Part shown: piece after piece, positions 2,793 through 58,553 of the stretch
How the letters are laid out: each line of letters opens with the position of its first letter
How positions within the stretch are numbered: position 1 is the stretch's first letter
Origin: an uncultured Fibrobacterota bacterium
GTDB taxonomy: Bacteria; Fibrobacterota; Chitinivibrionia; Chitinivibrionales; FEN-1185
Direction of reading: 5' to 3'
Assembly: GCA_963753345.1 (NCBI GenBank)
Contig: CAVWBU010000026.1
Span: forward strand, 96,001 to 160,000
Length of the DNA: 64,000 nucleotides
The notes under the pieces: model-generated
What the model saw: the letters and a program-made list of their open reading frames with translations, nothing else
The model's database searches: none
Told to the model about the DNA's origin: nothing
Program-made: the position numbers and the translations under genes

Positions 2793-3278
2793 ATGGATGA
2801 CGGACTCATTTACCTGAGCAAGGAAACTTTTGACAAGCTGCAGGAGCAGCTCACGACGCTCAAGACCACGCGCCGCAAGGAAATTTCGGTGCAGCTCCAC
2901 GACGCGCGGGCGAACGGCGACCTCGGCGAGAACGCCGAGTACGAGGTCGCCAAGGAGGAGCAGACGTTCAACGAGATCCGCATCCGCGAGCTCGAAGACA
3001 AGCTGGCGCGCTCACGCATCATCAGGGAAGAGGACCTGCCGCAGGGGAAGGCGGTGCTCGGCACCACGGTGCGGCTCCGCGACCTTGACACATCGGAGGA
3101 AATAGAGTACATGCTGGTATCGGAGGTGGAGGCGGATTTTGCGCAGGACAAGATATCGGTGTCGTCGCCCGTGGCTAAGGGACTTCTGGGGCACAAGGAG
3201 GGGGATGCCGTTGAGATCAAAGTGCCGAAGGGAATACTGAAGTACAAGATACTGAAGATTGAGCGGACAGCGAAGTAG
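2793..3278 (+). CDS. greA: Transcription elongation factor GreA
   Basis: ARANGDLGENAEY and ISVSSPVAKGLLG motifs. Start moved to ATG 2793, after the GGAGG RBS. Confidence 0.95.
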   Translation: MDDGLIYLSKETFDKLQEQLTTLKTTRRKEISVQLHDARANGDLGENAEYEVAKEEQTFNEIRIRELEDKLARSRIIREEDLPQGKAVLGTTVRLRDLDTSEEIEYMLVSEVEADFAQDKISVSSPVAKGLLGHKEGDAVEIKVPKGILKYKILKIERTAK

Positions 3279-3296
3279 AAAAAGAAATAATCAAGC

Positions 3297-3381
3297 AAGA
3301 TATGGAAAGGGCTCTGCCCTTTAGATCCCGCTTGGAAAATGCTTATTATAGCCCCCTCCAACCTCCCCCGAGGGGAGGCTT
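3297..3381 (+). repeat. Intergenic repeat family A, copy 1
   Basis: aagatatggaaagggctctgccctttagatcccgc..ggaaaatgcttattata..cctccaacctcccccgaggggaggc. Near-identical at 44648, related at 27755. Confidence 0.85.
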
Positions 3382-3409
3382 GACAACAGCGAAGTCGACA
3401 AGTTGATGT

Positions 3410-4544: not shown

Positions 4545-4694
4545 TATTTTTGGCAACGATTCCAGGAAATCAGCTTTGAGAAAATATAGATGAAGGAATA
4601 GAGGGGGTGCGGTCGTGTGAAAAACAGAGATAGCGCTATGGGTTTACATAGGCGGAAAAGTACTGATTATATGAGAATGAAGGGGGTGGTTTCT

Positions 4695-4825
4695 TGCGCC
4701 AGGGGCAACGGAGGGTGTGCTAGAGCACATTGCCGGCCGACCCGGCCGTTAGGCAAAGGGCGGTCCGGCAACGAGGCGAATAGCCGAGCCCGGAGGAGAA
4801 CCGGTGCCTAAAGCAGGCGCCCAAC
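4695..4825 (-). repeat. Intergenic repeat family C, short copy downstream of nrdJ
   Basis: Reverse complement ttgggcg...cctccgggctcggc..ttcgcctcgttgccggaccgccc...tcggccggca...caccctccg matches the copy at 53437. Confidence 0.7.
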
Positions 4826-4866
4826 TTCGAGATTAATTTACCAGAAAAGAGCAGAAAAATTACAAA

Positions 4867-7248
4867 TCATCCACACTTCGAATACCCGCACGTCTTGCAC
4901 ACCGCGCATCCTTCCTCGTGGACAAGGATGGTGCCGCATTGCGGGCATTGCGGACAGAAGCCCAGGTCGAGGCCCGTGTACTTGATCTTTGCGGTCTCAC
5001 CGCCGGCGCTGTCGCTCTTGCCTTCGAAATCCGCAATACCCTGCTCAAGCACATGGCCGATCGCGTCCGCGCACGAAAGGATCATCTCGCCTTCCATCCA
5101 GGTGGGGATGGGGCAGCGGATGCCGCGCAATTGCTCCGCAATGGATTTCGGGTCCACGCCGGCGCGAAGGGCCAGGGAGATGAGACGCGAGACCGCCTCG
5201 GAGTTGGACGCAGGGCAGCCGCCGGATTTCCCCATCTGGGTGAAGATCTCGCACAGGCCCACGCCGTCTGCGTTGACATTTACATACAGGTTGCCGCATC
5301 CGGTCTTGGTCTTGTAGGTGCGTCCGTGCGTTACCGCGGGCCGCGGGCGCGGGTGGATGGATCCCGGGGCCGCAACCGAGGCGTCGATCTGGACTGCGCC
5401 CTTCTTTGCCGATGTTCCGGAGGTTATCACCTGGTTCTTGCGCGTGCCGTCGCGGTACACGGTGACGCCCTTGCACCCGAGTTCGTATGCGTAAAGAAAA
5501 ACCTCCTCGACGTCCTTGGCGGTGGCATCGTGCTTGAAGTTGACGGTTTTCGACACGGCGTTGTCGGTGTACTTCTGGAACGCGGCCTGGATGCTGATGT
5601 GCCAGCGCGGCTCGATGTCGTGCGCGGTGACGAAAATGTCGCGGATGCGTTTGGGGATGCCGTAGATCTTGCCCAGAGAGCCGGAGAAAGCCACCATCTT
5701 CATGAGTTCGTCGGAGTAGAATCCTTCGTCCTGGGCGACGCGCTTGAACTCGGGATGAACTTCGAGCAAATGCTGGCCGTCGAGCACGTTCTTTTCGTAG
5801 ACAATGGCGAACAGCGGCTCGATGCCGCTCGATGCGCCGGCGATCATGCTGATGGTGCCGGTGGGTGCTATGGTGGTTACCGTCGCGTTGCGCACCTTGA
5901 GCCCGCCCTCACGGTCGTATATGGAGCCCTTGAAATTGGGAAACACACCGCGTTCCTGCGCCAGAAACGCGCTCACACGGCGCCCTTCCTCGTTGATGAA
6001 CTTCATTACCTGTTCGGCCATGTTGGCCGCGGCGGGAGAATTGTACGGAATGCCGAGCTCGATGAGCAGGTCGGCGAATCCCATTACACCGAGGCCGATC
6101 TTGCGGTTGCCTTTTGTCATTTTATCGATCTGCGGCAGCGGATACGAATTCACCTCGATGACGTTGTCGAGGAACCGCACCGCGGTGCGGATCGTGTTGC
6201 CGAGCTTGAGAAAGTTTATTTCTTTTTTTCCGTTGGTTTCGGTGATCATGTGCGCAAGGTTGATGGAGCCGAGGTTGCACGATTCGTACGGGAGCAGCGG
6301 CTGTTCGCCGCAGGGATTGGTGCTTTCTATTTCGCCCAGCTGCGGCGTGGGATTGTCGGCGTTGATCTTGTCGAGGAACACGATGCCCGGCTCGCCGTTT
6401 TTCCAGGAAAGTTCCACGATGCGCTTGAACACCTGCGATGCCTTGAGCTTTCCCACCGGCTCGCCGCTGCGCGGGTTCTTAAGGTCGTATTCGCCGTCGC
6501 GCTTGAGCGCCTCCATGAATTCCTTGGTGATGCCGACGGAGATGTTGAAATTCGCAAGCACGCCGTCCTGTTCCTTTATCTCGATGAAGTCCATGATCTC
6601 CGGATGGGTGCAGTTGAGGATCCCCATGTTGGCCCCGCGCCGCGTGCCGCCCTGCTTCACGGTCTCGGTTGCGATGTCGAACACGCGCATGAACGACAGC
6701 GGCCCGCTCGACACGCCCTTGGTGGATTTCACCATGTCGTTCTTGGGGCGGATGTGGGAAAACGAGAATCCGGTGCCGCCGCCGCTCTTGTGGATGAGCG
6801 CGGTGTTCTTGACGGATTCGAATATCTCGTCCATGGAATCGCCCACGGGCAGCACGAAGCACGCGGAAAGCTGCTGCAGCTCCCGGCCAGCGTTCATGAG
6901 CGTGGGGGAGTTGGGAAGAAAATCGAGGTCGGTCATGGTGTTGTAGAATTTTTCAGTCCAGATGTCGGTGCTTGCGTCGGCGCTGAACTTTTTCTCCGCC
7001 GAGGCGATGTTCTCCGCGATGCGGAAGAACATTTCCTCCGGCGTCTCGGTCACCGTGCCGTTATCGTCCTTGCGCAGATACCGCTTTTCGAGCACCACCC
7101 GCGAATTGTCGGACAGCTTCACTTTTTTCTTGAGCAGGCGGTCTTTAAGGGATTCACCTTTCTCTTCGGCCTCTGCGGCCGCGTTCGGACGAACCACGGC
7201 CGACTTCACTGTCTTGTTCGCGGTACCAAGGGACATTTCTGATGACAT
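4867..7248 (-). CDS. nrdJ: Adenosylcobalamin-dependent (class II) ribonucleotide reductase with C-terminal TSCPD/Zn-ribbon domain
   Basis: FLPNSPTLMNAG, SACFV, GGTRRGANM, TNPCGEQPL, TIAPTGTIS, GVTVYRDG and C-terminal CPQCG..EEGC..C..CGYSKC. Confidence 0.95.
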   Translation of the reverse strand: MSSEMSLGTANKTVKSAVVRPNAAAEAEEKGESLKDRLLKKKVKLSDNSRVVLEKRYLRKDDNGTVTETPEEMFFRIAENIASAEKKFSADASTDIWTEKFYNTMTDLDFLPNSPTLMNAGRELQQLSACFVLPVGDSMDEIFESVKNTALIHKSGGGTGFSFSHIRPKNDMVKSTKGVSSGPLSFMRVFDIATETVKQGGTRRGANMGILNCTHPEIMDFIEIKEQDGVLANFNISVGITKEFMEALKRDGEYDLKNPRSGEPVGKLKASQVFKRIVELSWKNGEPGIVFLDKINADNPTPQLGEIESTNPCGEQPLLPYESCNLGSINLAHMITETNGKKEINFLKLGNTIRTAVRFLDNVIEVNSYPLPQIDKMTKGNRKIGLGVMGFADLLIELGIPYNSPAAANMAEQVMKFINEEGRRVSAFLAQERGVFPNFKGSIYDREGGLKVRNATVTTIAPTGTISMIAGASSGIEPLFAIVYEKNVLDGQHLLEVHPEFKRVAQDEGFYSDELMKMVAFSGSLGKIYGIPKRIRDIFVTAHDIEPRWHISIQAAFQKYTDNAVSKTVNFKHDATAKDVEEVFLYAYELGCKGVTVYRDGTRKNQVITSGTSAKKGAVQIDASVAAPGSIHPRPRPAVTHGRTYKTKTGCGNLYVNVNADGVGLCEIFTQMGKSGGCPASNSEAVSRLISLALRAGVDPKSIAEQLRGIRCPIPTWMEGEMILSCADAIGHVLEQGIADFEGKSDSAGGETAKIKYTGLDLGFCPQCPQCGTILVHEEGCAVCKTCGYSKCG

Positions 7249-7428: not shown

Positions 7429-7545
7429 TATGGGCAGACGGGCCTCATGGCCGGGAAAAAAAGCAGGCCGACAATCAGCTGCCATAACCGCCCAATGTTG
7501 TATTTTATCACCCTGCCTGATTTTTACCAAAGAGGAGAAACGCCC

Positions 7546-8644
7546 ATGTCCGAAAAACTCGAGAAGAGCACCCTTGTGGATCTTTCCGGCCGCGTCGACA
7601 ACCTCCGGAGGTATCTTTGACGTCGACGAAAAACGGAAATCTCTGGCCGAATGCGAGCTTGACACATCAAAAGAAGGTTTCTGGACCGACAACGAAAAGG
7701 CCCAGGCAACCCTCAAGAAGATAAAGACCCTCAAAGACGTCATCACGCTGTGGGACAAGACCAAGAAGGACAGCGACGACATCCTCGAACTGTTTTCGCT
7801 TTCCAAAGACGACAACGATCCGTCGGTGACCGCGGAGCTGCTGGAGCACGCCAAGGCGCTTGAAAAGGAAGTCTCGCATTTAGAGTTCGTACGGAAGCTC
7901 TCCGGCGAAGACGACGACAAGCCCGCCATCCTCACGGTGCACAGCGGCGCCGGCGGCACCGAGAGCTGCGACTGGTGCGACATGCTGTTCCGCATGTACT
8001 GCAGGTGGATGGAGAAAAAGGGCTATTCGTACACGGTCCTCGACAGCCAGCCCGGGGAAGGCGCGGGCCTCAAGAGCGTCACCGCACAGGTGAACGGCGA
8101 CTATGCGTTCGGCCATCTCAAGGCCGAAAGCGGGGTGCACCGGCTCGTGCGCATATCGCCGTTCGACGCGAACGCCCGCAGGCACACGTCGTTCGCCTCG
8201 GTGTATTCGTATCCGATCATCGAAAATGCCGACGACTTCGAGCTTGACGAAAAGGACATCCGTATCGACACCTACCGGTCCAGCGGCGCCGGCGGCCAGC
8301 ACGTGAACAAGACCGACTCCGCCGTGCGCATGACGCACCTCCCCACCAACATCGTGGTCGCATGCCAGAACGAGCGCTCGCAACTTAAAAACAGGGACGT
8401 TGCAATGAAGGTCCTCAAGTCGCGCGTGAGGCAGTTCTACAAGGAACAGGACGAGAAAAAACGCACCGACAAGCTTGCGGTGAAGAAAAAGATCGAGTGG
8501 GGCAGCCAGATACGCTCGTACGTTCTGCACCCTTACAACCTGGTAAAGGACCACCGCACCGACGTGGAGACCTCGAACGCGCAGGGTGTGCTGGACGGGG
8601 ATATCGATATGTTTATCGAGGCCTATTTGTTAAATTTTCAATAA
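7546..8644 (+). CDS. prfB: Peptide chain release factor 2 with programmed +1 frameshift at CTT-TGA-C (7615-7621)
   Basis: MSEKLEK...LRRYL* continues in the +1 frame. Internal SD-like GGAGG just before CTTTGAC. SPF and GGQ motifs present. Confidence 0.96.
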
Positions 8645-9799: not shown

Positions 9800-10204
9800 T
9801 TATTCCGGCATCAACATGGTTACATTGAGATGCACAAAGAAAGAATCTGCAATAGTATTATCATAATTTGAATAATTCATTTTGATTTCCGTATTTCCAG
9901 CACTTACCAACCAAAGGAATATATTATCTGTTCCACCACTTCCTGGCGTAACCGGCTGATTCTCCTGGTAATTTCTCTTGATTTCTTTTACCATTGATGT
10001 GTCTATCTTTACAATTTGCCAAGAATAACCTGTAGTTTGATTACTCGATAATGAAATAACAAGCGTATCAAATGTATTCAAATTTATAGTTGAATTATCC
10101 GATTCTGCTCCAATTCGAACGGATTTATAAAAACTAACATTGTTGTTGCAACAAATAAGCATAGAAATTGTTATAAGAAACATGAAGACACATTTAGCTT
10201 GCAT
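9800..10204 (-). CDS. Chagasin/I42-family cysteine protease inhibitor-like lipoprotein
   Basis: SNQTTGYSW and PGSGG motifs (NPTTGY-like). Signal peptide ending in Cys. AGGAGG RBS. AT-rich. Confidence 0.7.
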   Translation of the reverse strand: MQAKCVFMFLITISMLICCNNNVSFYKSVRIGAESDNSTINLNTFDTLVISLSSNQTTGYSWQIVKIDTSMVKEIKRNYQENQPVTPGSGGTDNIFLWLVSAGNTEIKMNYSNYDNTIADSFFVHLNVTMLMPE

Positions 10205-10388
10205 GATTTGTCCTCCTTTTTCGCGCACTAACGTGAACAAGGTCAAGGCAAAATAGTAGCCCTCCCGTACACCTCGCTCCCGCTTCCGCCTGATGCCGGC
10301 CGGGCAATTTTAAGTTCCGTAAAGTAAAGCATTGACGATTGGGCGGTTGTGCCGTTCGCACCGTCCCGGCTAGAATCATCAATCACCC

Positions 10389-10859
10389 TCACATGCATCC
10401 GGCCTTTTCGTACTCGCTCACAATCGTGTAGCCCGAGGCGGCGCTGCGCTTGGCCAAAGCGCGCCTGTCAAGCGCCACCACGAGGTACTTGGTGTTTGCG
10501 TATTCGCAGGTGTACTTTGGATATTGGGTAACCGTGATGCCGGTGATTATTGCGGAGTCGTAGTCGGGGTGGGAAATTCTTGCCTGGTATATTGCCGGGC
10601 CGCCGGAAAAGCCGTAGGTGGAATCTGCGTCCAGCCAGAATGGATAGGGCTGAGCGCAGGTGTCGCAGGCGACAAGGGTGTCCCCCTTGTTATCCGTGAC
10701 TTTTATCGTTGCATGGACTATTGCCTGACCGCTTGATGCGTCCTGCAATCTGATTTTGAGCGCGGCGGACGTACATTCGGGGCAGATATAGCCTTTGGGC
10801 AAGAGGTCGCAGCCAAAGAGCATAAACAACATTAAGGGAAACAGCGAAATGATCTTCAT
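10389..10859 (-). CDS. Hypothetical Cys-rich lipoprotein with carboxypeptidase-regulatory-like beta-sandwich
   Basis: Lipobox LFGC and a DASSGQAIVHATI motif. Last gene of the ECF-caspase run. Confidence 0.65.
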   Translation of the reverse strand: MKIISLFPLMLFMLFGCDLLPKGYICPECTSAALKIRLQDASSGQAIVHATIKVTDNKGDTLVACDTCAQPYPFWLDADSTYGFSGGPAIYQARISHPDYDSAIITGITVTQYPKYTCEYANTKYLVVALDRRALAKRSAASGYTIVSEYEKAGCM

Positions 10860-10892
10860 GGGGCGCCTCCCTGGAAATATTGCTTTCCGGCA

Positions 10893-11636
10893 TCACTCTT
10901 TGAACTGCTTCAGACAATAAGATTCCCGCAGCTTCCCGCTCGAATAGTTGAGGTAGCCCACGCACCCAATGGCGGGATTGTAGTAGTAATAGCTCTCGTA
11001 GTTTGCTCCTGTCTCTTTGTAAAGGTAGCACTCCACAAAGCTGCCCGCGGTCATGGTCTGCGGGTCGGCGACAAAGAAGGCCGCGTGCGTGGACAGGATT
11101 TCCATGGTAACGGCAAACACCGGGTCGCCCGCGCTGTCCGGGTTGAACTGCCACGTTCTGCCGCTGTCGGCCGGGTAGGCGAGCCAGAGTTTTTCGGACG
11201 AAAACAGGTGCGGTTCGTTGTCGCGGTACCATCCGACCACGTATAATCCACGCTTGTCAAGCGAATAGTTCCCCCGGTGCGCCACGAGCGCGCCGCTGTC
11301 GCGGTTGTCCCATTCGTACTTGTAAACGTATGCCGCGAAGGTGTCGCCATAATTCTGCCAGGTGAGGGTCACCAGCTGCGTATCGTCGACCAGCCCGTAG
11401 CCGCTGGGAAGCGCAAGCGCCAGTTCGATTCTGCTTGGAGTAATCTTGTTGCCCAGCGAGTCGTATGCCGTCAATGAATACGTCCACGAGTTTCCGATTG
11501 CAAGCGGCAGGATGCTCGGCGTCGCGGGGAACGGAGGGTTCTGGGGCGTCCCGCTGGAGGTCGGGGCACGCAGGGCCGTGCAGCCCGCCAGAACCAGCAG
11601 GCTCGCCAGCAGAACAGTTACGCAAAGGGACCGCAT
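10893..11636 (-). CDS. Hypothetical lipoprotein
   Basis: MRSLCVTVLLASLLVLAGC lipobox, PLAIGNSWTY motif and AGSFVEC...YYNPAIG. Starts 2 nt after the caspase stop. Confidence 0.75.
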   Translation of the reverse strand: MRSLCVTVLLASLLVLAGCTALRAPTSSGTPQNPPFPATPSILPLAIGNSWTYSLTAYDSLGNKITPSRIELALALPSGYGLVDDTQLVTLTWQNYGDTFAAYVYKYEWDNRDSGALVAHRGNYSLDKRGLYVVGWYRDNEPHLFSSEKLWLAYPADSGRTWQFNPDSAGDPVFAVTMEILSTHAAFFVADPQTMTAGSFVECYLYKETGANYESYYYYNPAIGCVGYLNYSSGKLRESYCLKQFKE

Positions 11637-11638
11637 CG

Positions 11639-13405
11639 CTAGTCCTCCTGCCGGGTAAACGACAGATGAAAATTGACAAATACGCTTCCGTCGAATCCGC
11701 CGAAGCTGCACGAAAGGGGCGGCGCCGCCGGCGTTGCCGGCAGGGGCAGCGATCCGGAATAGCCGTTGTCGAACTGGACGGGACGGTACTGCCAGCGATA
11801 CCGTATTTTTGCCCCGATGTCAAGGAACCTGAATACCGGCCAGGTGTAGCCGAGCGCCGCGTAGGGGACCGCCGCCGTCGCGGAGCGGGTCTCGGCGCCC
11901 GAGGTTTCCGCGTTGTACAGTGAATCGTAGAACACCGATGAAACATTGAGCTCCGGTTCGTATACGGCGACGCCGATGTGGACGGATGAGTTTCTCATGA
12001 ACCTGTTCTGAAACCGGTAGCCTGCTCCCAGGTCGATGATCTTCACGGTGAGCGTCTGTTGCACATGCAACCTGCAGCCGTAGGTTGCATTGTCCGGCTG
12101 GTTGAACCGTGTGCCGTCGTAATCGGCGGCGGAGGCCTGCGTGAATCCGCCGAACCCGAGGTGCGCTTCAAACCGCTGCCGCACGATCACCTCGCCCGAG
12201 ATTAGAGGCATCGCCTGGTACTTTTTGTACGAAAAGGTCGGGCTCATGGAATACGCGGTGAATCCCGCGAACCGCTGGGACAAACCGGAAGACAGGCCCG
12301 AAAGATCGTACACGCCCCATCCGCCCGAAATGCTTATGCCGGCCTGCGCGCTCCGCGCGCCGCGGCGGGGCTGTTCTCCCTTGGCAATCGACGGCGAAGA
12401 CTTGACGGCGTGAAAATCGTTCCGGTGCAGGGTGACCACGGATTTTTCCGCAACCGTGGCCTGGGCCTGAAAGCGCAGGCCGCCCTGCGCGCTGATCACA
12501 TTGTACGTTCCCTGTCCGAGCGCTATCATGACCGCGGCGGAGGGCTTTTTTGTCAAGTCGGCGACCACCGCGCCCTTGTCGCTGAGAATGGTGATGTCCC
12601 CCTCGACGTCGCCCGCAAGCATGATGCCCCGGGTGCGGATATTGAGGTCCGCGAGCACGATGTCGCCCTCGCCCTGGATGCGGAACTGGTACGAGGGATG
12701 CTGGACGCCGCCCGCGCTTCCCGCCGTGCTCGAAATGGTGCGGTTGTACGCGTACTGGTACGCTTCGCTCAGGGTGATGCGGCCGTCGCCGGCCATGTCG
12801 GCGCTGCCGCGCAGCGCGTTAACAAAGTGGAACGTGAACACCGAATTGCCCAAAAGGTCCGATTCCTGCGCGTTTTCGTTGATGGAGCTCGAGCACAAGA
12901 TCACCTGGCCCTTGGTCTTGCCGTCGTCGCGGAACAAAAAAGGCTCGTCGAGCGTGCCGCCTTTGATGCGCGTGAAGCTGCCGCTCTGGCACGCGTCAAA
13001 CACCCCGATGCGGACGTCCGCGGGAAACGACGTGAGCATTTCCTTAAGCTTTGCAAGCGGGAAATCGCCGGCGCCCATCTTGAGCGATGACGCGTCGGCA
13101 TGGCCCGAGTAATAGAACAGGAACAGGTTGTTCCCCGACCCCGAAAGGCCGCCCCCCAGATCGGCCAGGGCCTTTTCCAGGTCGGCAGGCGACTGGTCGT
13201 ACAGCACCGCAACGTGCTGCGGCGAAAAGCCGCAGAAATCGGTGAGGATGTTCTGCAGGGCGCTGCAGTCGTTCCGGACATATTTGAGCGCGGCGTATGA
13301 GGGACCCGCAGCAGTACTGTTGCCTACGAGCAGGGCGTACCGCTCCGCGACCACGCCGTGAACCGCGGCCAGAAGAACAAGGAGTATAAGCAGCCGTTTC
13401 GGCAT
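11639..13405 (-). CDS. Exported caspase-family (peptidase C14) protein with C-terminal beta-barrel-like domain
   Basis: Signal peptide, RYALLVGN, catalytic YSGHA and DACQSG, E...SVFT, GSAD..DGRITLSEAY. C-terminus has amphipathic beta strands. Confidence 0.85.
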   Translation of the reverse strand: MPKRLLILLVLLAAVHGVVAERYALLVGNSTAAGPSYAALKYVRNDCSALQNILTDFCGFSPQHVAVLYDQSPADLEKALADLGGGLSGSGNNLFLFYYSGHADASSLKMGAGDFPLAKLKEMLTSFPADVRIGVFDACQSGSFTRIKGGTLDEPFLFRDDGKTKGQVILCSSSINENAQESDLLGNSVFTFHFVNALRGSADMAGDGRITLSEAYQYAYNRTISSTAGSAGGVQHPSYQFRIQGEGDIVLADLNIRTRGIMLAGDVEGDITILSDKGAVVADLTKKPSAAVMIALGQGTYNVISAQGGLRFQAQATVAEKSVVTLHRNDFHAVKSSPSIAKGEQPRRGARSAQAGISISGGWGVYDLSGLSSGLSQRFAGFTAYSMSPTFSYKKYQAMPLISGEVIVRQRFEAHLGFGGFTQASAADYDGTRFNQPDNATYGCRLHVQQTLTVKIIDLGAGYRFQNRFMRNSSVHIGVAVYEPELNVSSVFYDSLYNAETSGAETRSATAAVPYAALGYTWPVFRFLDIGAKIRYRWQYRPVQFDNGYSGSLPLPATPAAPPLSCSFGGFDGSVFVNFHLSFTRQED

Positions 13406-14157
13406 CAGGGGGTTCCTTGCTTTATGGTAAGCAGGTGCGGCACAGTCACGAATCCGCCCCCGAGGCGCAGCGTGTCGGGCAGGCTGCTCTTGTCAAGGGA
13501 CGAGCCGATGCGCCGCCGCACGTCGGAAAGCGAAAACCGCCGGTCCGAGAACACGCCCGCGAACAGCTCGGGCCCGGTGTAGTTGTCAAGCGCGATTGAA
13601 TTCGGAAGCGGGATGTCGCGGCCCTTGTCCAGTACCATTGAGGAATCGCCGGACGGCGGGAAATAGGTGGTGACGCCGCCGGCAGTGTCGATGCCCACGA
13701 GCGCGAAATGGTTGTCCGCGCCGCAGGAATAGACAAACTGGATCTTCTCTCCGGTAAAGTATTCCCGTCCGGCGCGTTTTTCGATGTCGCCGTGCCGGTC
13801 TTTGACAAGAATCGTGAGTGAGGTGTCGCCCTTGATGCGGGTCCCGGGTTCCTCCCTTGTGGCCAGGTAGAGAGAGCCCGCGCCCACGAGCAGGACGAGC
13901 GACGCAGCGAGCGCGCACACGGAACGTCGTTGGAAAAACAGGATGCGCTGCGCCGGTTTCCGGTCGTGCAGGGACGCGGCTGCTTCGAACGGGTGCGTGG
14001 CGAGAAAAGCCGCCTTTTCCGCTTCGATCGAGGCAAGATACGACCGGCACTTCCCGCATGACCCGATATGGCGCGTGATCGCCCTTTTCTTTGCGTCGCC
14101 TGTGTCCCCCGTGAAATACGAGAGAAGGTCTATTTTGTTAAACTGATGCTTTTCCAT
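13405..14157 (-). CDS. Membrane anti-sigma factor with ZAS motif and DUF4384-like extracytoplasmic domain
   Basis: HIGSCGKC (HxxxCxxC), one TM helix, then GEKIQFVY...LPNSIALDNYTGPE. Coupled to the ECF sigma and the caspase. Confidence 0.75.
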   Translation of the reverse strand: MEKHQFNKIDLLSYFTGDTGDAKKRAITRHIGSCGKCRSYLASIEAEKAAFLATHPFEAAASLHDRKPAQRILFFQRRSVCALAASLVLLVGAGSLYLATREEPGTRIKGDTSLTILVKDRHGDIEKRAGREYFTGEKIQFVYSCGADNHFALVGIDTAGGVTTYFPPSGDSSMVLDKGRDIPLPNSIALDNYTGPELFAGVFSDRRFSLSDVRRRIGSSLDKSSLPDTLRLGGGFVTVPHLLTIKQGTP

Positions 14158-14158
14158 G

Positions 14159-14656
14159 CTAAATGCCAAGCCTCTTTTTGACGGCCGGGAGGCCGTCCCT
14201 GAATCTCTTGAGGTTTCTGCGGATGGTCGCGGGCGACTGACCCGTTATCTTCCGGATCTCCTCCTGGCCGAATTCCTCGACATACGTGTAGTACACCGCA
14301 TCTCTCACCCTCTCGTTCTGGTCCGCGAAAATCAGCCGGATCAGGTCCTTTTCGTCAAGCCGTTTGCCCTCGTCAAGCCGCGCCGCCGTCTCGTCCGGAT
14401 CGATCCCGTCTGCAAACTTCCTGCTGTCCCTGAGCAAGTTGAAACAGTGCCGTTTCGCGGCGATAAAAATCCACGGGACGGTCCGTTCCTTGTTGCGGAT
14501 GGAGCCGTAGCACTCCAGCAGTTTCAGAAACACGGCCTGCAGGGCGTCCTTGGCGTCGTCATCGGAGCCCAGGATGCGACGGCAGGTGCGATAGATCAGA
14601 AACCCGTATTTTTCGTACAATTCCTTTGCCGCAACCGGGCCTTGGTCCAGAGCCAT
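14159..14656 (-). CDS. ECF-type RNA polymerase sigma factor
   Basis: LYEKYG..IYRTCRRILG..DAKDALQAVFLKL...WIF (region 2) and QEEIRKITGQSPATIRRNL (region 4). Confidence 0.88.
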   Translation of the reverse strand: MALDQGPVAAKELYEKYGFLIYRTCRRILGSDDDAKDALQAVFLKLLECYGSIRNKERTVPWIFIAAKRHCFNLLRDSRKFADGIDPDETAARLDEGKRLDEKDLIRLIFADQNERVRDAVYYTYVEEFGQEEIRKITGQSPATIRRNLKRFRDGLPAVKKRLGI

Positions 14657-14789
14657 ACGTTTACGCCATCCACGTTGATAAGACACGCCAGGAAGGATCA
14701 ATCGCTCACGCGATGTGCCGACAGAACCGGCACCAACAAAACGGGCGGGTGAATACCCGCCCGTGCAACAGACGACTGCAAGGGGAGTG

Positions 14790-15671
14790 TTACTTCTTTT
14801 TGAAGCTTCCCTTGAGAAAATCAAACGTGATGTACCTGTCTTTTTTGCCGCTTGTTATCGTCGAATCGTACGGGTGCTTCTCGGTTTTCACCCATTCCTT
14901 CTTCTTCCCGCTTTCCTTGAGGTTCATGTAGATCTGCTTGTCGCATTTTTCCCGCTTTACAAATATCAAAATGGTGTCGCCCACAAGGTCGTAGGTTCCC
15001 CACGACTCGAATTTCCAGTCTTCCTTGAGGCTCGGGTTGGTAAGGCCGGTCCGCTCCTCGACAATGTTCACCTTGCCATCCGTGCCGAAGGAAAAAGACT
15101 TCTTCTCCACCGCATTGGCGCCGTCCTGTTTGATGGCCTGCGACCCCGACCACGTTCCGACAAGCTTGGGGCGCAGTTCCTTGGCGAGCTGATTGCTCTT
15201 TTCGAGGCTCATGAAAATGGTGTCGGCCTCCATGGCCTTGGCCTTTGCCTCGGGCCACTTGTTCATCTTGATAAATGAGTCAACCACGGAAAGCAGGCTG
15301 TCGGCTTCCCTGAGGATCGTGCCGGAGAAATTGAGCTTTTTGTCCCCCAGGGACTTCCGCAGCGACTCCACGGCCGGTTTGACCTGCGCGGTCGTGGCAC
15401 CGTAGCCCGCTTCGGCCTTGGCGAGGATGGCCATGGCCGAGTCGTAACTTGCTTTTGCGCCGATGCCGTTGCCGAGTTTTTTATCAGTGCGGGCCTGGAC
15501 AACAAGCACCTGCGCCTCGGAGAGAAGCGAGTCCGGGACCCCGCCCTGACGCAGCGTTTCCATGCGCTGTTCGGCGTCTTTCAGTTTCTTCTCGCTCACG
15601 CAGCCGGCGACCATGAACAGCGCGACGCCGCCGACCAGTGCAACAGAAAGGGTCTTGCCCAAGATTTTCAT
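14790..15671 (-). CDS. Hypothetical Lys-rich lipoprotein (helical N-domain, lipocalin-like LVGTW C-domain)
   Basis: Lipobox VAGC, GGAGG RBS and host-like codon usage. Confidence 0.7.
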   Translation of the reverse strand: MKILGKTLSVALVGGVALFMVAGCVSEKKLKDAEQRMETLRQGGVPDSLLSEAQVLVVQARTDKKLGNGIGAKASYDSAMAILAKAEAGYGATTAQVKPAVESLRKSLGDKKLNFSGTILREADSLLSVVDSFIKMNKWPEAKAKAMEADTIFMSLEKSNQLAKELRPKLVGTWSGSQAIKQDGANAVEKKSFSFGTDGKVNIVEERTGLTNPSLKEDWKFESWGTYDLVGDTILIFVKREKCDKQIYMNLKESGKKKEWVKTEKHPYDSTITSGKKDRYITFDFLKGSFKKK

Positions 15672-15719
15672 ACGGAGCCCTCCGGTAAAGGTTTTTCCTT
15701 TGTGATGCATACCATAGGT

Positions 15720-15749: not shown

Positions 15750-16016
15750 GGGAATAGAAGCGGGGGGTGATTGGAGGAGTTATATTTCGACCAACGAATG
15801 CGCTTGAGCGGGCCTTGCGGCATGGAACCGAGGACAATGCGCCTGGAAGAGGACGGACAGATTTCGCCGGTTACCGGCGCGCACTGCTCGGTTTTCACCC
15901 AGAAAACACTTTGTTCACAAACACATTGAAAAATGGAAATTTCCATATATATTATCCTTATATACGCCGCGTGTATCAGCCAAAAGGCTTAGGCGTGTCG
16001 CCGAAATGGGGGATTT

Positions 16017-17231
16017 ATGCATAAATTGTTGCTGATTCTCATTGCTTCGATGGCGGTGTCATCTCAGGCTGCGAATCCGTACTTTATAAGTGATAGCGGT
16101 ATTTGTGCTGGAGCGTTGACCGCTAAGACATACAATGAGAAGATATCTCTTAGATATGACACTGTTTCAAGAGAAAGCACAATGGTGTGCAGTAATGTTT
16201 GCAAATGGCAGTATGTTTATAAAATAGATTCAATCTACAGTATATCTTACTTGACCGAGTACACCGCAGTTGAAAAAGTGTACTTTTCATTCTTTGACTC
16301 ACTCAACAGAGAATTCAAATTTACCATAAATGTTCCGCAAGCTACGGTTGATAGTATCTGGGGTGATACAATGTCCCTGCCCGGCTACAACAAGGTATTG
16401 TATGCGAAGATAGATGTTCCATCCGGCAACGCTGACGGGTTGTACGTAAGTTCTTATACTTTAATCGGGACCTTGAAGCAGAATTCGAATGTCAGCTTTT
16501 CTGCTGAAATCAGACCATGGACGTCAAATTGCGATTGTCCTCAACCTTGTGGTTGCAGAGATAGTACTTTGCCTCCGCAAGGCGAATGGCACTGGCTTTA
16601 CACTACCTGGACCGAAATTCAAAGTGGCGGCCATTCTTACTCCTCTGGATATTTAGATCCATCTTCTGTCGGACATAATTATTACTATGTGCTTAAAAAA
16701 GATTCGGTATATGGTTATCAGGATGCCGTTGAGCAGTTTGCTGACACTATCGGCAATGTGAACTTGTGCTACGAGTCTTTTTCTACACCCCACGCATTCT
16801 GTTCTTCGGATACAAGTGCGAAAGGCGGTTATTACTATTCTTTCATTGGTGATAAAATATTGTGCTTAGAGTATTCGGTCTGCGGCCAAGAATGCATGAG
16901 CATGACTAACTACGCATCTTATTTTCTGGCCAATAGTGCTTCTGTCGATCCCAAGGATACGCCACTGCCCAGTATGTTTAGCAAGTTTAGTGTCAAACAG
17001 TTGTCGAACAGGAATGTCCAGGTGGTATTAAACCTTTCAAAAGCTTCGGTTGTAAGCCTGATGCTATATTCCGTCTCCGGAAAACTCGTTTCAAATCTCT
17101 TCAAGCAACATCAATCGTCAGGGAACTATACGTATGTTCTCAAAATGCCGGTACTGCATGCAGGTTGCTACTTGCTTGTCCTGAAGAAGGGCGATCAAGT
17201 TGAAAGTGCTAAATTCAATTATATTCGCTAA
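16017..17231 (+). CDS. Secreted Cys-rich protein with C-terminal secretion-tail-like domain
   Basis: Signal peptide. C-terminus LYSVSGKLV...HAGCYLLVL resembles a T9SS CTD. AT-rich. Confidence 0.7.
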   Translation: MHKLLLILIASMAVSSQAANPYFISDSGICAGALTAKTYNEKISLRYDTVSRESTMVCSNVCKWQYVYKIDSIYSISYLTEYTAVEKVYFSFFDSLNREFKFTINVPQATVDSIWGDTMSLPGYNKVLYAKIDVPSGNADGLYVSSYTLIGTLKQNSNVSFSAEIRPWTSNCDCPQPCGCRDSTLPPQGEWHWLYTTWTEIQSGGHSYSSGYLDPSSVGHNYYYVLKKDSVYGYQDAVEQFADTIGNVNLCYESFSTPHAFCSSDTSAKGGYYYSFIGDKILCLEYSVCGQECMSMTNYASYFLANSASVDPKDTPLPSMFSKFSVKQLSNRNVQVVLNLSKASVVSLMLYSVSGKLVSNLFKQHQSSGNYTYVLKMPVLHAGCYLLVLKKGDQVESAKFNYIR

Positions 17232-17282
17232 AACCCGAATTTGGAATTCTTACCTTTGGACAAGGACTTGTAAATACCTCTC

Positions 17283-18182
17283 ATGTCAATACCACACAAG
17301 TCTCTCGAATGTGACCAAACATTCACGTCCAGAATCGTTTTCATATTCACCTGCGTAAGCCTTTTATTGCTTTTTTCAACTTGCTCCCCCAAAATTCCGC
17401 CCTATCCCTATCATCTTGTCAACCATTCCTGGGTATACTGCATAAAGCAGCACAACGATTCCCTCTATTTCTCCACCTCGGAGGAAGGCATTTTCCGTTT
17501 TCACCCTGACAATCCAAACGCAATCACCAGGGTGGGCAGATGCAGGACCTTGCCGTTCCGCTCAATCGTCTTCCCGCCCGACGGCAGGCTCCTCGCGTCG
17601 TCGTATTACAGCGGCGTGTTTGCGGCGGGCAGGGACACGCTGTTTCCCGTAAAGAACGCTTCGTACCCGGCTTGGTCCATGAAGCTTGACAAACGCGGCG
17701 CATTCTGGCTCGCCGGGACGCGCGGCGTGATGCGGCAGGCGGGCGACACCGTCGTCATGTTCAAGGACGTGACCGACGCGCACGACGTGGCGTTGTTCGG
17801 CAACGCGGTGGCGGTGGCGCACCGGCGCGGCATCACGCTGTACGACAGGGAAAGCGGCGCGCTTTCGGCGGAGTACTGCAAGGGGACGATATGCTGGACG
17901 CTTGCGGTGTTCGATTCGGTGCTGGTGGCCGGAGGGAGCAATGTCTGCGCCGTCATCGGCGCGGGCAAATGCCGCCTCATCCGCGTGCCGCCGCAGGGCA
18001 ACATGCCCTGGTCAATCGAGAAGGATTCCCTGGGCGCGATCTTCATGGGCACGCAGAAGGGGCTCTTTCGCGCGGGGCCGAACGACAGCGTGGCGCGCTG
18101 CGTGGGCCTGGAAGGCAGGTGCGTCAAGTCGGTGCTGTTCGACAGGGCGGGAAGGTTGTGGGTAGGAACGTTTTATCGTTGA
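17283..18182 (+). CDS. Beta-propeller (two-component regulator propeller-like) protein
   Basis: Repeated D..G..W.GT motifs (DKRGAFWLAG, DSLGAIFMGT, DRAGRLWVGT). Hydrophobic N-terminus. Confidence 0.65.
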   Translation: MSIPHKSLECDQTFTSRIVFIFTCVSLLLLFSTCSPKIPPYPYHLVNHSWVYCIKQHNDSLYFSTSEEGIFRFHPDNPNAITRVGRCRTLPFRSIVFPPDGRLLASSYYSGVFAAGRDTLFPVKNASYPAWSMKLDKRGAFWLAGTRGVMRQAGDTVVMFKDVTDAHDVALFGNAVAVAHRRGITLYDRESGALSAEYCKGTICWTLAVFDSVLVAGGSNVCAVIGAGKCRLIRVPPQGNMPWSIEKDSLGAIFMGTQKGLFRAGPNDSVARCVGLEGRCVKSVLFDRAGRLWVGTFYR

Positions 18183-58552: not shown

Positions 58553-58553
58553 A

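What the first reader, a model, noticed from the sequence alone, without database searches (positions are those of the whole stretch)
10389..14656. ECF sigma / ZAS anti-sigma / exported caspase-barrel operon sharing a TRIKG motif: candidate caspase-triggered envelope signalling system
Seen: five closely spaced co-oriented genes. They encode an ECF sigma, a TM anti-sigma (HxxxCxxC plus extracytoplasmic domain), a signal-peptide caspase with an intact His/Cys dyad fused to a barrel-like C-domain, and two lipoproteins. The exact pentapeptide TRIKG occurs in the caspase loop just after the catalytic Cys (DACQSGSF-TRIKG, 12959-12973). It also occurs in the anti-sigma just after its TM helix (EPG-TRIKG, 13828-13842). 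Known: ortho/metacaspases cut after Arg/Lys and can self-process in this loop, and ECF release normally needs a site-1 cut of the anti-sigma. Inference: the caspase self-activates and clips its anti-sigma at the same site, acting as a dedicated site-1 protease. I recall similar gene trios in myxobacteria but know of no described mechanism.
Basis: partly seen in the sequence, partly recalled or inferred. Interest (0 to 1): 0.85.

Follow-up and report, generated by a model that had tools for sequence, protein, structure and literature searches.

The report
Caspase-gated sigma factor switch operon
A gene cassette found in several bacterial phyla pairs a stress-type sigma factor and its membrane inhibitor with a caspase-like protease tethered to the outer membrane, and a shared cut-site-like motif suggests, without proof, that the protease frees the sigma factor by cutting the inhibitor.

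Summary
Five co-oriented, nearly abutting genes on the minus strand encode an ECF sigma, a ZAS/TM/DUF4384-like anti-sigma, a signal-peptide C14 caspase with an Ig-like domain and a predicted 8-stranded barrel, and two probable lipoproteins. TRIKG sits exactly at 12959-12973 and 13828-13842.

An identical pentapeptide is not significant alone (15% of shuffles) and is rare among homologous pairs (3 of 103). The consensus x-R-x-K-G is conserved in both partners across several phyla. In the anti-sigma, K is found in 112 and G in 112 of 114 sequences. In the caspase, K/R and G are found in 114 of 114.

New here:
- A third invariant [K/R]-G (108 of 108) lies in the hypervariable linker between the caspase-Ig module and the barrel. 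Two of the three sites lie inside segments the models score below pLDDT 50; the anti-sigma motif starts in one.
- A conserved ECF promoter (TGAGCGAT-N14-GTGTCTTA) occurs only at this operon and at an unlinked LVIVD lipoprotein gene.

Best reading (about 0.5): the caspase is the site-1 protease of its anti-sigma. No cleavage was shown.

The sigma/metacaspase operon was noted in print in 2012. DdvA and Craspase-Csx30 are mechanistic precedents. This scan noted the same module earlier on other DNA. Verdict: a new variant of a known kind.

The parts
14679..14708 (-). Candidate ECF-type promoter: TGAGCGAT (14708-14701), a 14-nt spacer, then GTGTCTTA (14686-14679), ahead of the sigma gene
   Evidence: The sequence was read. 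The same two boxes recur upstream of sigma in most of the 29 relatives' loci printed (L021-L049, read by eye; no clear match in L026, L031 and L035). In the 4.5-Mb genome there is one exact copy here and one copy with a single mismatch elsewhere. It is not experimentally mapped.
14741..14764 (-). Terminator-like hairpin that ends the upstream lipoprotein gene and separates it from the operon
   Evidence: 10 pairs, 8 of them G-C, followed by a T-rich tail.
14159..14656 (-). ECF sigma factor (165 aa)
   Evidence: Sigma70_r2 41.4 bits, Sigma70_r4_2 21 bits (below its cut-off of 25.7), TIGR02937 64.1 bits (cut-off 42.9).
13405..14169 (-). Anti-sigma factor (254 aa from TTG; 250 aa from the ATG at 14157): N-terminal zinc-type anti-sigma domain, one TM helix, and a periplasmic DUF4384-like beta-sandwich
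   Evidence: Of 35 family members, 28 match DUF4384 and 19 match zf-HC2.
14047..14070 (-). H34-x3-C38-x2-C41 (ZAS-type motif)
   Evidence: Read from the translation. The helical bundle at residues 12-68 is in the model.
13858..13932 (-). Transmembrane helix of the anti-sigma (residues 80-104)
   Evidence: (helix 80-104) and the hydropathy scan.
13828..13842 (-). Anti-sigma T110-R-I-K113-G114: candidate site-1 cleavage site (K113|G114), 9 residues after the TM helix and 3 residues before the first beta-strand
   Evidence: Coordinates. Conservation. pLDDT is below 50 at residues 106-111.
13420..13821 (-). Periplasmic DUF4384-like beta-sandwich of the anti-sigma (residues 117-250)
   Evidence: Foldseek finds only generic Ig-like folds, none at E <= 0.001.
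11639..13405 (-). Exported C14 caspase (588 aa): signal peptide, caspase domain, Ig-like domain, C-terminal beta-barrel
12725..13342 (-). Caspase (p20-like) domain, residues 22-227. His102 is at 13100-13102 and Cys139 at 12989-12991. D46 and D137 are invariant.
12959..12973 (-). Caspase T145-R-I-K148-G149 (site 1), 6-10 residues after the catalytic Cys: candidate activation-loop cleavage site or pseudosubstrate
   Evidence: K/R in 114 of 114 and G in 114 of 114. The loop 146-162 has pLDDT below 50.
12404..12700 (-). Ig-like beta-sandwich (residues 236-334), as in the MALT1 caspase-Ig3 arrangement
   Evidence: No Pfam match.
12377..12382 (-). K342-G343 (site 2): an invariant basic-Gly pair in the hypervariable, low-confidence linker between the Ig-like domain and the barrel; candidate self-release site
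   Evidence: K-G in 61 of 61. [K/R]-G in 108 of 108 across phyla, with flanking columns at 3-3.8 bits of entropy. pLDDT is below 50 at residues 338-346.
11657..12349 (-). C-terminal all-beta domain (residues 353-583), predicted OmpA-like outer-membrane barrel
   Evidence: long antiparallel strands, pLDDT above 90. Foldseek matches OmpA-long 9fzd_A at E 1.7e-6. One homolog is named 'opacity protein-like surface antigen' by its source. No Pfam match.
10893..11636 (-). Lipoprotein 1 (247 aa, lipobox LAGC): a conserved fourth gene in the query clade
   Evidence: Present in 15 of 20 loci and in 8 of 8 extended loci. The lipobox Cys is conserved. No Pfam match. The Atlas gives a weak DUF3108-like lead only.
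10389..10859 (-). Lipoprotein 2 (156 aa, LFGC): a variable accessory gene
   Evidence: Not found downstream of lipoprotein 1 in 8 of 8 extended relatives' loci, G003-G005 among them. In G005 a 26%-identical homolog sits between sigma and anti-sigma. CarboxypepD_reg-like at E 0.007, below its cut-off.

Best explanation
This is a self-contained envelope signalling module in which an exported Arg/Lys-specific C14 caspase acts as the dedicated site-1 protease of its neighbouring anti-sigma factor.

Proposed steps (all cleavage steps are inferred, none shown):
1. At rest the ECF sigma is held at the inner membrane by the zinc-type N-domain of the anti-sigma.
2. The caspase-Ig module hangs in the periplasm from an OmpA-like barrel in the outer membrane, as a zymogen.
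3. An unknown envelope signal activates the caspase, which cuts after a basic residue followed by Gly in the consensus T-[R/V]-x-[K/R]|G.
4. It cuts at three places. The first is its own loop after the catalytic Cys (K148|G149, probably in trans). The second is the linker to the barrel (K342|G343), which frees it from the outer membrane so it can reach the inner membrane. The third is the anti-sigma linker (K113|G114), which removes the DUF4384-like domain and leaves a stub of about 9 residues.
5. An RseP-type M50 protease then cuts within the membrane, and the sigma is released.
6. The sigma transcribes from TGAGCGAT-N14-GTGTCTTA promoters. These drive its own operon (positive feedback that also makes more caspase) and an LVIVD-repeat lipoprotein gene.

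Shown: gene order, domains, motif conservation, predicted disorder of the sites, the promoter motif and its two genomic copies, and the presence of an M50 protease.
For: Synteny.
- The sigma/anti-sigma/caspase trio is present in 20 of 20 loci and in 27 of 29 loci; the other 2 are cut by contig ends.
- It is present in 17 of 19 loci of distant 500-870 aa caspase paralogs; the other 2 are cut.
- In 73 loci from other phyla with at least 1.9 kb of upstream DNA, the anti-sigma is found in 72 and the sigma in 70.
- By eye, 48 of the 50 anti-sigma places in 61 relatives abut a caspase match; the other 2 lie at contig ends.

Motif.
- Anti-sigma: P3 R in 97, P1 K in 112 (+1 R) and P1' G in 112 of 114 sequences. 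Caspase: P4 T in 91, P3 R in 94, P1 K in 112 (+2 R) and G in 114 of 114.
- R.KG occurs within 70 aa after the TM helix in 92 of 111 anti-sigmas, against 2.4 expected. The TM-to-motif distance varies from 6 to 38 residues, so the motif is tied to the domain boundary rather than to the membrane.
- In an independent sample (the top 150 of 14,674 library representatives), 146 were scored. Of these, 105 have RxKG, 39 have another [KR]G and 2 have none. TRIKG is the commonest pentapeptide.

Third site. [K/R]-G is found in 108 of 108 sequences inside columns of 3-3.8 bits entropy. Some clades read TR[ILVS][KR]G there too.

Accessibility. Sites 1 and 2 fall inside the only two internal segments of the caspase model with pLDDT below 50. 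The anti-sigma motif starts inside a third such segment (106-111) and ends 3 residues before the first strand.

Not due to homology. The two families are unrelated by profile comparison (hhalign probability 0.4%).

Catalytic competence. His102 and Cys139 are conserved in 113 and 114 of 114 sequences. D46 and D137 are invariant and align with the ND and DxC positions of a metacaspase. Their S1-pocket role is recalled from metacaspase structures.

Downstream machinery. An M50 protease gene lies at G000:C18:103795-105039.

Precedents read. The DdvA CHAT self-cleavage model is in PMC11506125. Csx29 cleaving Csx30, which is bound to an ECF sigma, with some Csx30 C-terminal domains being DUF4384, is in 10.1101/2022.08.17.504292.
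Against: - No biochemical or expression data exist for this or any homolog that my searches found.
- The caspase is itself in the sigma's operon, so it could be only an output.
- In the phmmer alignment, a K-G of a fungal metacaspase that has no anti-sigma lines up with K148-G149. Site 1 may therefore be an ancestral structural feature rather than a cut site.
- Nine residues between Cys139 and K148 make cis cleavage sterically unlikely (inference).
- Exact identity of the two pentapeptides is rare (3 of 103 pairs).
- P2 covariation is confined to one clade: both partners aromatic in 12 pairs, caspase only in 6, anti-sigma only in 2.
- One locus changes K to R in both partners (L044), but another does so in the caspase only (L063).
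- One caspase (L093) has the motif but no sigma or anti-sigma within 4 kb.
- The loci are related to each other and were collected through caspase or anti-sigma similarity. One search pattern was the catalytic-site peptide next to site 1.
- The barrel has no Pfam match. Its membrane location and the periplasmic orientation of the caspase are inferred.
Confidence: 0.5

Rival explanations
1. The caspase is only an output. The ECF sigma responds to some other signal through another site-1 protease or by zinc/redox release. It then switches on the operon, and the caspase and lipoproteins act as effectors, for example in envelope remodelling or processing of other exported proteins. The anti-sigma R-x-K-G would be the target of a different protease or a binding element.
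For: The caspase, lipoprotein 1 and the LVIVD lipoprotein all sit behind the sigma's own promoter motif. Only two strong promoter copies exist in the genome, so the regulon is essentially these proteins. The anti-sigma carries a ZAS motif, which in some systems responds to redox (recalled).
Against: This does not explain why an Arg/Lys-type protease and its neighbour share T-R-x-K-G in predicted flexible segments across phyla. It does not explain the third [K/R]-G in the caspase's own linker. It also does not explain why the DUF4384-type anti-sigma was found without an adjacent caspase only at contig ends.
Confidence: 0.25
2. There is coupling without cleavage. The anti-sigma linker motif binds the caspase active site as a pseudosubstrate or bait, or the caspase loop and the anti-sigma linker compete for one binding site. 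Occupancy or release changes the anti-sigma's conformation or its stability towards RseP, as in a partner switch.
For: The same motif occurs in the caspase's own active-site loop and in the partner. That loop is strongly conserved yet modelled as disordered. DUF4384 is reported to be often fused to protease domains (10.1101/2022.08.17.504292, passage read).
Against: The catalytic dyad is retained in essentially every homolog: His in 113 and Cys in 114 of 114. This argues for real proteolysis. The third site in the barrel linker is hard to explain by binding alone.
Confidence: 0.12
3. The shared motif has no common cause. K-G after the catalytic Cys is a structural feature of metacaspase-like domains, and R-x-K-G before the DUF4384-like domain is a structural cap of that fold. 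The identical TRIKG in this window is coincidence.
For: A shared 5-mer arises in 15% of shuffles. Identity is found in only 3 of 103 pairs. In one search's alignment a K-G of a fungal metacaspase lines up with K148-G149.
Against: The Pfam DUF4384 match starts at residue 137, well after the motif. A multi-repeat relative (P0206) has DUF4384-like repeats that, by eye, are not preceded by K-G. The motif is the only conserved element in linkers of very different length. All three sites share T-x-x-[KR]-G and low model confidence.
Confidence: 0.08

Closest known systems
DdvS/DdvA of Myxococcus xanthus (PMC11506125; passages read)
   Same: It has an ECF sigma and a single-pass anti-sigma with an N-terminal zinc-type domain. 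A caspase-superfamily protease module in the periplasm is proposed to cut the linker between the TM helix and the periplasmic domain, as a site-1-like step before RseP. That step is untested there as well.
   Different: In DdvA the protease is a TPR-CHAT domain fused to the anti-sigma and is proposed to act within a dimer. Here the protease is a separate C14 (metacaspase-like) protein with an Ig-like domain and a barrel anchor, and the anti-sigma's periplasmic domain is a small DUF4384-like sandwich. DdvS drives a CBASS/CRISPR island; here the predicted regulon is the operon itself plus one lipoprotein gene.
Type III-E Craspase: Csx29 (TPR-CHAT) cleaves Csx30, which binds the ECF sigma RpoE/CASP-sigma (10.1101/2022.08.17.504292; passages read)
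   Same: A caspase-like protease cuts an anti-sigma-like protein bound to an ECF sigma. Some Csx30 C-terminal domains belong to DUF4384.
   Different: It is cytoplasmic, RNA-guided and CRISPR-linked. It uses CHAT, not C14. There is no transmembrane relay and no barrel.
SAVED-CHAT / PCaspase / PCc-sigma cascade of Haliangium ochraceum (10.1101/2023.06.23.546230; passages read)
   Same: A bacterial Peptidase_C14 protein is activated by cleavage and then cleaves a sigma-factor-type protein encoded beside it.
   Different: It is cytoplasmic, triggered by cyclic oligoadenylate, and the sigma itself is the substrate. No ZAS/TM/DUF4384 anti-sigma is described in the passages I read.
Sigma-70/metacaspase operons noted by Asplund-Samuelsson et al. 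2012 (PMC3501461; passages read)
   Same: This is very probably the same operon type. The paper reports four M. xanthus metacaspase operons that share a sigma factor gene, and says the structure is also seen in Anaeromyxobacter, Haliangium, Sorangium, Ralstonia and Fibrobacter.
   Different: The passages I read record only the co-occurrence. They contain no anti-sigma, no motif, no mechanism, no barrel and no promoter. Supplementary Table S2 (operons) could not be opened.
Regulated intramembrane proteolysis of RseA by DegS and RseP in E. coli sigmaE (recalled, not read here)
   Same: The logic is the same: a periplasmic site-1 cut of a single-pass anti-sigma leaves a short stub, and an M50 protease then cuts. 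An M50 gene is present in this genome.
   Different: The site-1 enzyme there is a PDZ serine protease that senses OMP C-termini. Here the candidate is a cysteine protease of the caspase fold encoded in the operon and tethered to the outer membrane.
MALT1 paracaspase (best Foldseek matches)
   Same: It shares the caspase domain followed by an Ig-like domain. It is Arg-specific, and several substrates have Gly at P1' (recalled).
   Different: It is eukaryotic and cytosolic. Sequence identity is 10-12%. The resemblance is of fold only.

Membership tests
ECF (group IV) sigma-70 factors | A small protein with sigma2 and sigma4 regions only | tested here: met
   165 aa. Sigma70_r2 scores 41.4 bits (cut-off 24) and TIGR02937 scores 64.1 (cut-off 42.9). 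Sigma70_r4_2 scores 21 bits, below its cut-off of 25.7. No curated ECF subgroup model reached its cut-off.
ECF (group IV) sigma-70 factors | Co-transcribed cognate anti-sigma and an autoregulated promoter | tested here: inconclusive
   The anti-sigma gene overlaps or abuts the sigma stop. The TGAGCGAT-N14-GTGTCTTA motif is conserved upstream of sigma in relatives. Transcription was not measured, and no RNA run was listed.
Zinc-binding (ZAS) class I anti-sigma factors | An H-x3-C-x2-C motif in an N-terminal helical anti-sigma domain, followed by a TM helix | tested here: met
   H34/C38/C41 read in the translation. Helices at 12-68 and a TM helix at 80-104 are in the model. zf-HC2 matches 19 of 35 family members, though not the window protein itself at E <= 0.01. 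Zinc binding is not testable here.
DUF4384 (PF14326) | A score above Pfam's gathering threshold | tested here: inconclusive
   The window protein scores 23.2-24.6 bits against a cut-off of 27. 28 of 35 aligned relatives match at E <= 0.01, the best at 7.9e-10.
Peptidase C14 (caspase/metacaspase/orthocaspase) | The caspase-hemoglobinase fold with a His-Cys dyad | tested here: met
   PF00656 scores 43.8 bits (cut-off 21.4). H102 and C139 are invariant. Foldseek matches MALT1, metacaspases, caspases and gingipain.
Peptidase C14 (caspase/metacaspase/orthocaspase) | Arg/Lys specificity through acidic S1-pocket residues | tested here: inconclusive
   D46 and D137 are invariant and align with the ND and DSC positions of C. 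glabrata metacaspase. The assignment of these positions to the S1 pocket is recalled. Activity is not testable here.
NF047832 caspase, EACC1-associated type | A score above NCBIfam's cut-off | tested here: not met
   78.4 bits against a cut-off of 140.
OmpA-like 8-stranded outer-membrane barrel | A closed antiparallel barrel recognisable by sequence family or by structure | tested here: inconclusive
   No Pfam match at E <= 5. The AF2 model has long strands at pLDDT above 90. Foldseek matches OmpA-long at E 1.7e-6 and TM-score 0.59 on the target. The protein ends five residues after the last aromatic residue (read from the sequence). Membrane insertion is not testable here.
DdvA-type anti-sigma (fused periplasmic TPR-CHAT) | The protease domain is part of the anti-sigma polypeptide, and it is a CHAT domain with TPR repeats | tested here: not met
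   The anti-sigma is 254 aa with only a DUF4384-like domain. The protease is a separate C14 protein. One apparent fusion (L143) is a frameshift. This system works like DdvA's proposed model but is not a member.
Regulated intramembrane proteolysis pathway | A site-2 (M50) protease is available, and a site-1 cut leaves a short periplasmic stub | tested here: inconclusive
   An M50 match of 212 bits lies at G000:C18. The stub predicted from K113 is about 9 residues after the TM helix. No cut is shown.

The most novel reading that the evidence does not exclude
This is a trans-envelope proteolytic relay built on one cut-site code, T-x-x-[K/R]|G. An outer-membrane-barrel-tethered caspase zymogen senses a disturbance of the outer membrane or cell surface through its barrel and its long predicted surface hairpins, possibly with the partner lipoproteins. 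It activates itself at site 1 and cuts itself loose from the barrel at site 2. It then crosses the periplasm to remove the sensor domain of its anti-sigma at the third site. This would give bacterial C14 caspases their first defined physiological substrate and a new class of dedicated site-1 protease. On this reading, tethering to the opposite membrane is the safety catch.
Probability: 0.3. Interest if true: 0.85.

Novelty: new variant of a known kind. Interest (0 to 1): 0.7.

Why it matters
Bacterial C14 caspase homologs are widespread, but I know of no defined physiological substrate for them (recalled; my searches found none). ECF sigma pathways are the third major mode of bacterial signalling, and for most groups the site-1 event is unknown (recalled).

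This module is large. The anti-sigma profile finds 14,674 library representatives at E <= 0.001, and the trio occurs in Fibrobacterota, Myxococcota, Spirochaetota, Acidobacteriota (Vicinamibacterales), Bdellovibrionales and Latescibacterota records.

It offers a precise, cheap test with three predicted scissile bonds, one catalytic Cys and one promoter motif. It would also test, in a two-protein form, the site-1 role that was proposed but could not be tested for the fused DdvA CHAT domain.

Tried and rejected
- Complex prediction (caspase 20-345 with anti-sigma 100-254): no verdict (0.20 and 0.13; mark 0.32). Not used either way.
- RNA runs for 10300-14900: none was listed.
- The genome search with PF00656 on the window's own genome: 0 matches, although hmmscan finds the domain. 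I treated this as a miss of the tool's first look and used tblastn instead, which found no paralog of the caspase or the anti-sigma in the genome.
- The search for related loci with the anti-sigma alignment A2: an error, because the alignment has no stretch conserved enough. The caspase alignment was used instead. I therefore have no sample of DUF4384-type anti-sigmas chosen independently of context with their neighbours visible.
- hhalign of the caspase profile against the anti-sigma profile: probability 0.4%, so no homology. This rules out the idea that the caspase's Ig-like domain is a DUF4384 copy.
- Pfam on the barrel, the Ig-like domain and lipoprotein 1: nothing.
- Atlas search for lipoprotein 1: a DUF3108-like cluster at 0.93, a weak lead only.
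- Foldseek of the anti-sigma model: 0 matches at E <= 0.001. The hits are generic Ig-like folds (RhoGDI, an alpha2-macroglobulin domain).
- P2 covariation between partners: real in raw counts but confined to one clade, so not counted as co-evolution.
- Search for a conserved [KR]G in lipoprotein 1 (18 sequences) and in the LVIVD protein (15 sequences) as further substrates: none.
- Apparent anti-sigma-caspase fusion in L143: a frameshift, not a fusion.
- Chagasin-type inhibitor gene as a caspase inhibitor: it is absent from the operon in G003-G005, and by recall I42 targets papain-like enzymes. Not part of the core.
Unresolved.
- Literature searches for a described mechanism: 'anti-sigma'+'ECF'+'Peptidase_C14' found 0 papers. 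'orthocaspase'+'sigma factor' found 1, which is DdvA-related. 'metacaspase'+'anti-sigma' found 3, none on this module. 'DUF4384' found 7.

Full report
1. WHAT IS THERE

On the minus strand of the window lie five co-oriented genes:
- an ECF sigma, 14159-14656;
- an anti-sigma, 13405-14169 (TTG start; an in-frame ATG at 14157);
- a caspase, 11639-13405;
- lipoprotein 1, 10893-11636;
- lipoprotein 2, 10389-10859.

The first four overlap or lie within 2 nt of each other, and a 33-nt gap precedes the fifth.

Family searches give the following.
- The sigma is a bona fide ECF-type sigma: Sigma70_r2 41.4 bits and TIGR02937 64.1 bits, both over their cut-offs.
- The caspase matches Peptidase_C14 at 43.8 bits (cut-off 21.4).
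- The anti-sigma has a sub-threshold DUF4384 match at 23.2-24.6 bits against a cut-off of 27.
- 28 of 35 aligned relatives of the anti-sigma match DUF4384 and 19 of 35 match zf-HC2.

Source names of homologs place the organism in Chitinivibrionales/Chitinispirillaceae, phylum Fibrobacterota. The genome holds no paralog of the caspase or the anti-sigma.

2. IS THE SHARED PENTAPEPTIDE MORE THAN CHANCE?

Taken alone, it is not. A shared 5-mer between these two proteins appears in 15.4% of 5000 shuffles, and between some pair of the five proteins in 48.4%. Among 103 homologous pairs, the two partners carry the identical pentapeptide in only 3. The exact identity in this window is therefore incidental.

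3. THE MODULE IS CONSERVED

In 61 relatives' genomes, the caspase query matched in 44 and the anti-sigma query in 40. By eye, 48 of the 50 anti-sigma places abut a caspase place, and the other 2 lie at contig ends.

The trio in the same order is present in:
- 20 of 20 loci;
- 27 of 29 loci, the other 2 being cut by contig ends;
- 17 of 19 loci around distant 500-870 aa caspase paralogs, the other 2 being cut.

Its best 80 loci come from Fibrobacterota, Myxococcota, Spirochaetota, Vicinamibacterales, Bdellovibrionales and Latescibacterota records. Of the 73 loci with at least 1.9 kb of upstream DNA, 72 have the anti-sigma and 70 have the sigma directly upstream on the same strand. One locus (L093) has neither.

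The anti-sigma profile finds 14,674 representatives at E <= 0.001 in a 1.84-billion-protein library. Of these, 6,398 are at E <= 1e-10 and 1,737 at E <= 1e-30.

4. THE MOTIF IS CONSERVED IN BOTH PARTNERS

Counts come from 114 anti-sigmas and 114 caspases from unique loci.
- Anti-sigma: P3 R in 97, P1 K in 112 (+1 R), P1' G in 112.
- Caspase: P4 T in 91, P3 R in 94, P1 K in 112 (+2 R), P1' G in 114, and the next residue G in 101.

R.KG occurs within 70 residues after the TM helix in 92 of 111 anti-sigmas, where shuffling predicts 2.4. The 19 exceptions mostly keep x-x-K-G. The distance from the TM helix to the motif ranges from 6 to 38 residues. The motif therefore tracks the start of the periplasmic domain, inside a linker that is otherwise variable in length and sequence.

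In the top 150 library representatives, which were not chosen by gene context, 146 of suitable length were scored. Of these, 105 have RxKG, 39 have another [KR]G and 2 have none. TRIKG is the commonest pentapeptide, seen 12 times. The two protein families are not homologous (hhalign probability 0.4%).

K342-G343 lies in the linker between the Ig-like domain and the barrel. It is invariant in 61 of 61 close homologs. Across all clades and phyla the position reads [K/R]-G in 108 of 108 sequences that reach it (54 K, 54 R). The flanking columns have 3-3.8 bits of entropy, and P4 is T in 50 of 108. In several clades this site also reads TR[ILVS][KR]G, and in L045 it is TRIKG itself.

The three sites thus share T-[R/V]-x-[K/R]-G.

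6. STRUCTURE MODELS

The caspase model has pLDDT 85. It shows a caspase fold at 22-227, a beta-sandwich at 236-334 and a long-stranded all-beta domain at 353-583. Its only internal segments with pLDDT below 50 are 146-162 and 338-346, and these contain sites 1 and 2. Foldseek ranks MALT1 caspase-Ig3 first, then metacaspases, gingipain, caspases and OmpA-long.

The anti-sigma model has pLDDT 85.9. It shows a helical N-domain, a TM helix at 80-104, a segment with pLDDT below 50 at 106-111, and a first strand starting at residue 117. K113|G114 therefore sits in a flexible stretch three residues before the sandwich. The sandwich has no significant match to a solved structure.

D46 and D137 are invariant and align with the ND and DSC positions of a metacaspase. 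By recall these positions form the acidic S1 pocket that gives metacaspases their Arg/Lys specificity. Also by recall, T-R-x-K|G resembles known C14 preferences: basic P3 and P1 for AtMC9, and Gly at P1' in MALT1 substrates.

7. OUTPUT OF THE SIGMA

A hairpin terminator (14764-14741) closes the upstream gene. Between it and the sigma start lies TGAGCGAT-N14-GTGTCTTA (14708-14679). The same two boxes recur upstream of sigma in most of the 29 relatives' loci printed. This was read by eye, and L026, L031 and L035 show no clear match.

In the 4.5-Mb genome there is one exact copy at this operon and one copy with a single mismatch at C49:188879. Three further sites have two mismatches, where I estimate about five by chance. 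The second copy lies 68 nt upstream of a 356-aa LVIVD-repeat lipoprotein gene.

Several observations tie that gene to the module.
- Its homologs in G004, G005 and G003 carry the same motif upstream.
- In G008 the gene follows lipoprotein 1 inside the operon.
- In two other records it sits directly upstream of sigma.

The predicted regulon is therefore small: the operon itself plus this lipoprotein.

Lipoprotein 1 is a conserved fourth gene in the query clade: 15 of 20 loci and 8 of 8 extended loci. Lipoprotein 2 and the chagasin-family gene at 9800-10246 were not found downstream of lipoprotein 1 in any of the 8 extended loci. In the three same-genus genomes G003-G005 the Nif3-like gene follows directly. 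Neither is part of the core.

8. MECHANISM

The best-supported reading is that the caspase is the site-1 protease of its anti-sigma. After the cut, an M50 protease would act; one is present. The released sigma would then feed back on the operon.

The geometry argues for a role of site 2. The anti-sigma site is only about 9 residues from the inner membrane, while the caspase is predicted to hang from the outer membrane. A cut at K342|G343 would free it. This step, and all cleavage steps, are inferences.

Evidence against this reading:
- the caspase is also an output of the sigma;
- a K-G of a fungal metacaspase lines up with site 1's alignment;
- cis cleavage 9 residues from the catalytic Cys is unlikely;
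- covariation is weak and confined to one clade;
- one caspase stands without a sigma or anti-sigma (L093).

The complex prediction gave no verdict and no RNA data were available. I place about 0.5 on the site-1 reading, 0.25 on 'output only', 0.12 on a non-cleaving pseudosubstrate coupling and 0.08 on unrelated structural motifs.

9. COMPARISON WITH WHAT IS KNOWN

The co-occurrence of sigma-70-family genes with metacaspase genes was recorded in 2012. It was seen in four M. xanthus operons and in Anaeromyxobacter, Haliangium, Sorangium, Ralstonia and Fibrobacter. No mechanism is given in the passages I read (PMC3501461), and its supplementary operon table could not be opened.

- The nearest mechanistic relative is DdvA, a ZAS anti-sigma with a fused periplasmic TPR-CHAT domain. 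It is proposed, but not shown, to cut its own juxtamembrane linker before RseP acts (PMC11506125, passages).
- In the cytoplasm, Csx29 cuts Csx30, which is bound to an ECF sigma, and some Csx30 C-terminal domains are DUF4384 (10.1101/2022.08.17.504292, passages).
- Also in the cytoplasm, a C14 'PCaspase' cuts a neighbouring sigma-type protein (10.1101/2023.06.23.546230, passages).

The present module works like these but is a member of none. Its protease is a separate C14 protein with an Ig-like domain and a barrel, and it carries a three-site motif and its own small regulon.

My searches found no paper describing this mechanism. Earlier notes of this scan describe the same trio on other DNA, with the same tentative reading. 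I re-derived the synteny and the two-partner motif independently here. A word search of the earlier notes for the third site returned nothing.

10. VERDICT

The module is a new variant of a known kind. Interest is 0.7.

Noticed in passing
window 9800-10246 (-): A chagasin-family peptidase inhibitor I42 gene (E 6.9e-14) lies 143 nt downstream of lipoprotein 2 on the same strand. It is absent at this position in same-genus genomes G003-G005, where the Nif3-like gene follows lipoprotein 1 directly. A protease inhibitor next to a protease operon is suggestive, but by recall I42 targets papain-like enzymes.
   Followed up: partly
G000:C49:188879-190017 (outside the window; locus L149/L150): An LVIVD-repeat lipoprotein gene carries the only other strong copy of the operon's promoter motif in the genome. 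It is physically linked to the module in other genomes, downstream in G008 and upstream in L072 and L074. Its role is unknown.
   Followed up: yes
L003/L024 (G005:C7), between sigma and anti-sigma: A 26%-identical homolog of lipoprotein 2 is inserted between the sigma and anti-sigma genes in one same-genus genome. Lipoprotein 2 therefore moves around within the module.
   Followed up: no
window 14790-15710 (-): A 306-aa lipoprotein-like gene with no Pfam match is a conserved upstream neighbour in same-genus genomes. It has a 38%-identical paralog on contig C35 and is separated from the operon by a strong hairpin terminator.
   Followed up: partly
L154 (G003:C37), minus-strand position 3437: A second promoter-like motif (TGAGCGGT ... 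GTCGTCTT) lies downstream of the LVIVD gene in G003. It may mark another regulon member in that genome.
   Followed up: no
L143 (record CAVYWJ010000003.1), 3062-6343: The anti-sigma and the caspase appear to lie in one open frame. The anti-sigma is in fact frameshifted at about residue 208, and the frame stays open by chance in GC-rich DNA. This is an assembly error or a pseudogene, not a fusion.
   Followed up: yes
window 7430-8644 (+): This is a peptide chain release factor gene (PCRF and RF-1 domains). The first ~70 residues of the listed ORF lie ahead of the first Pfam match and read as low-complexity sequence. That would be consistent with a programmed +1 frameshift as in RF2 genes, or with a later true start.
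   Followed up: no
window 16017-17231 (+) and 17283-18182 (+): A lower-GC stretch (0.48) holds a 404-aa exported protein with no Pfam match and a 299-aa protein with Reg_prop/WD40-like propeller repeats.
   Followed up: no
window 58001-62000: This is the lowest-GC patch of the window (0.435-0.48, against roughly 0.52-0.63 elsewhere apart from 16001-18000). It may be foreign DNA.
   Followed up: no
P0206 (library representative, 758 aa): A relative has two N-terminal anti-sigma-like segments and four or five tandem DUF4384-like repeats. By eye, none is preceded by K-G. The fold therefore does not need the motif.
   Followed up: partly
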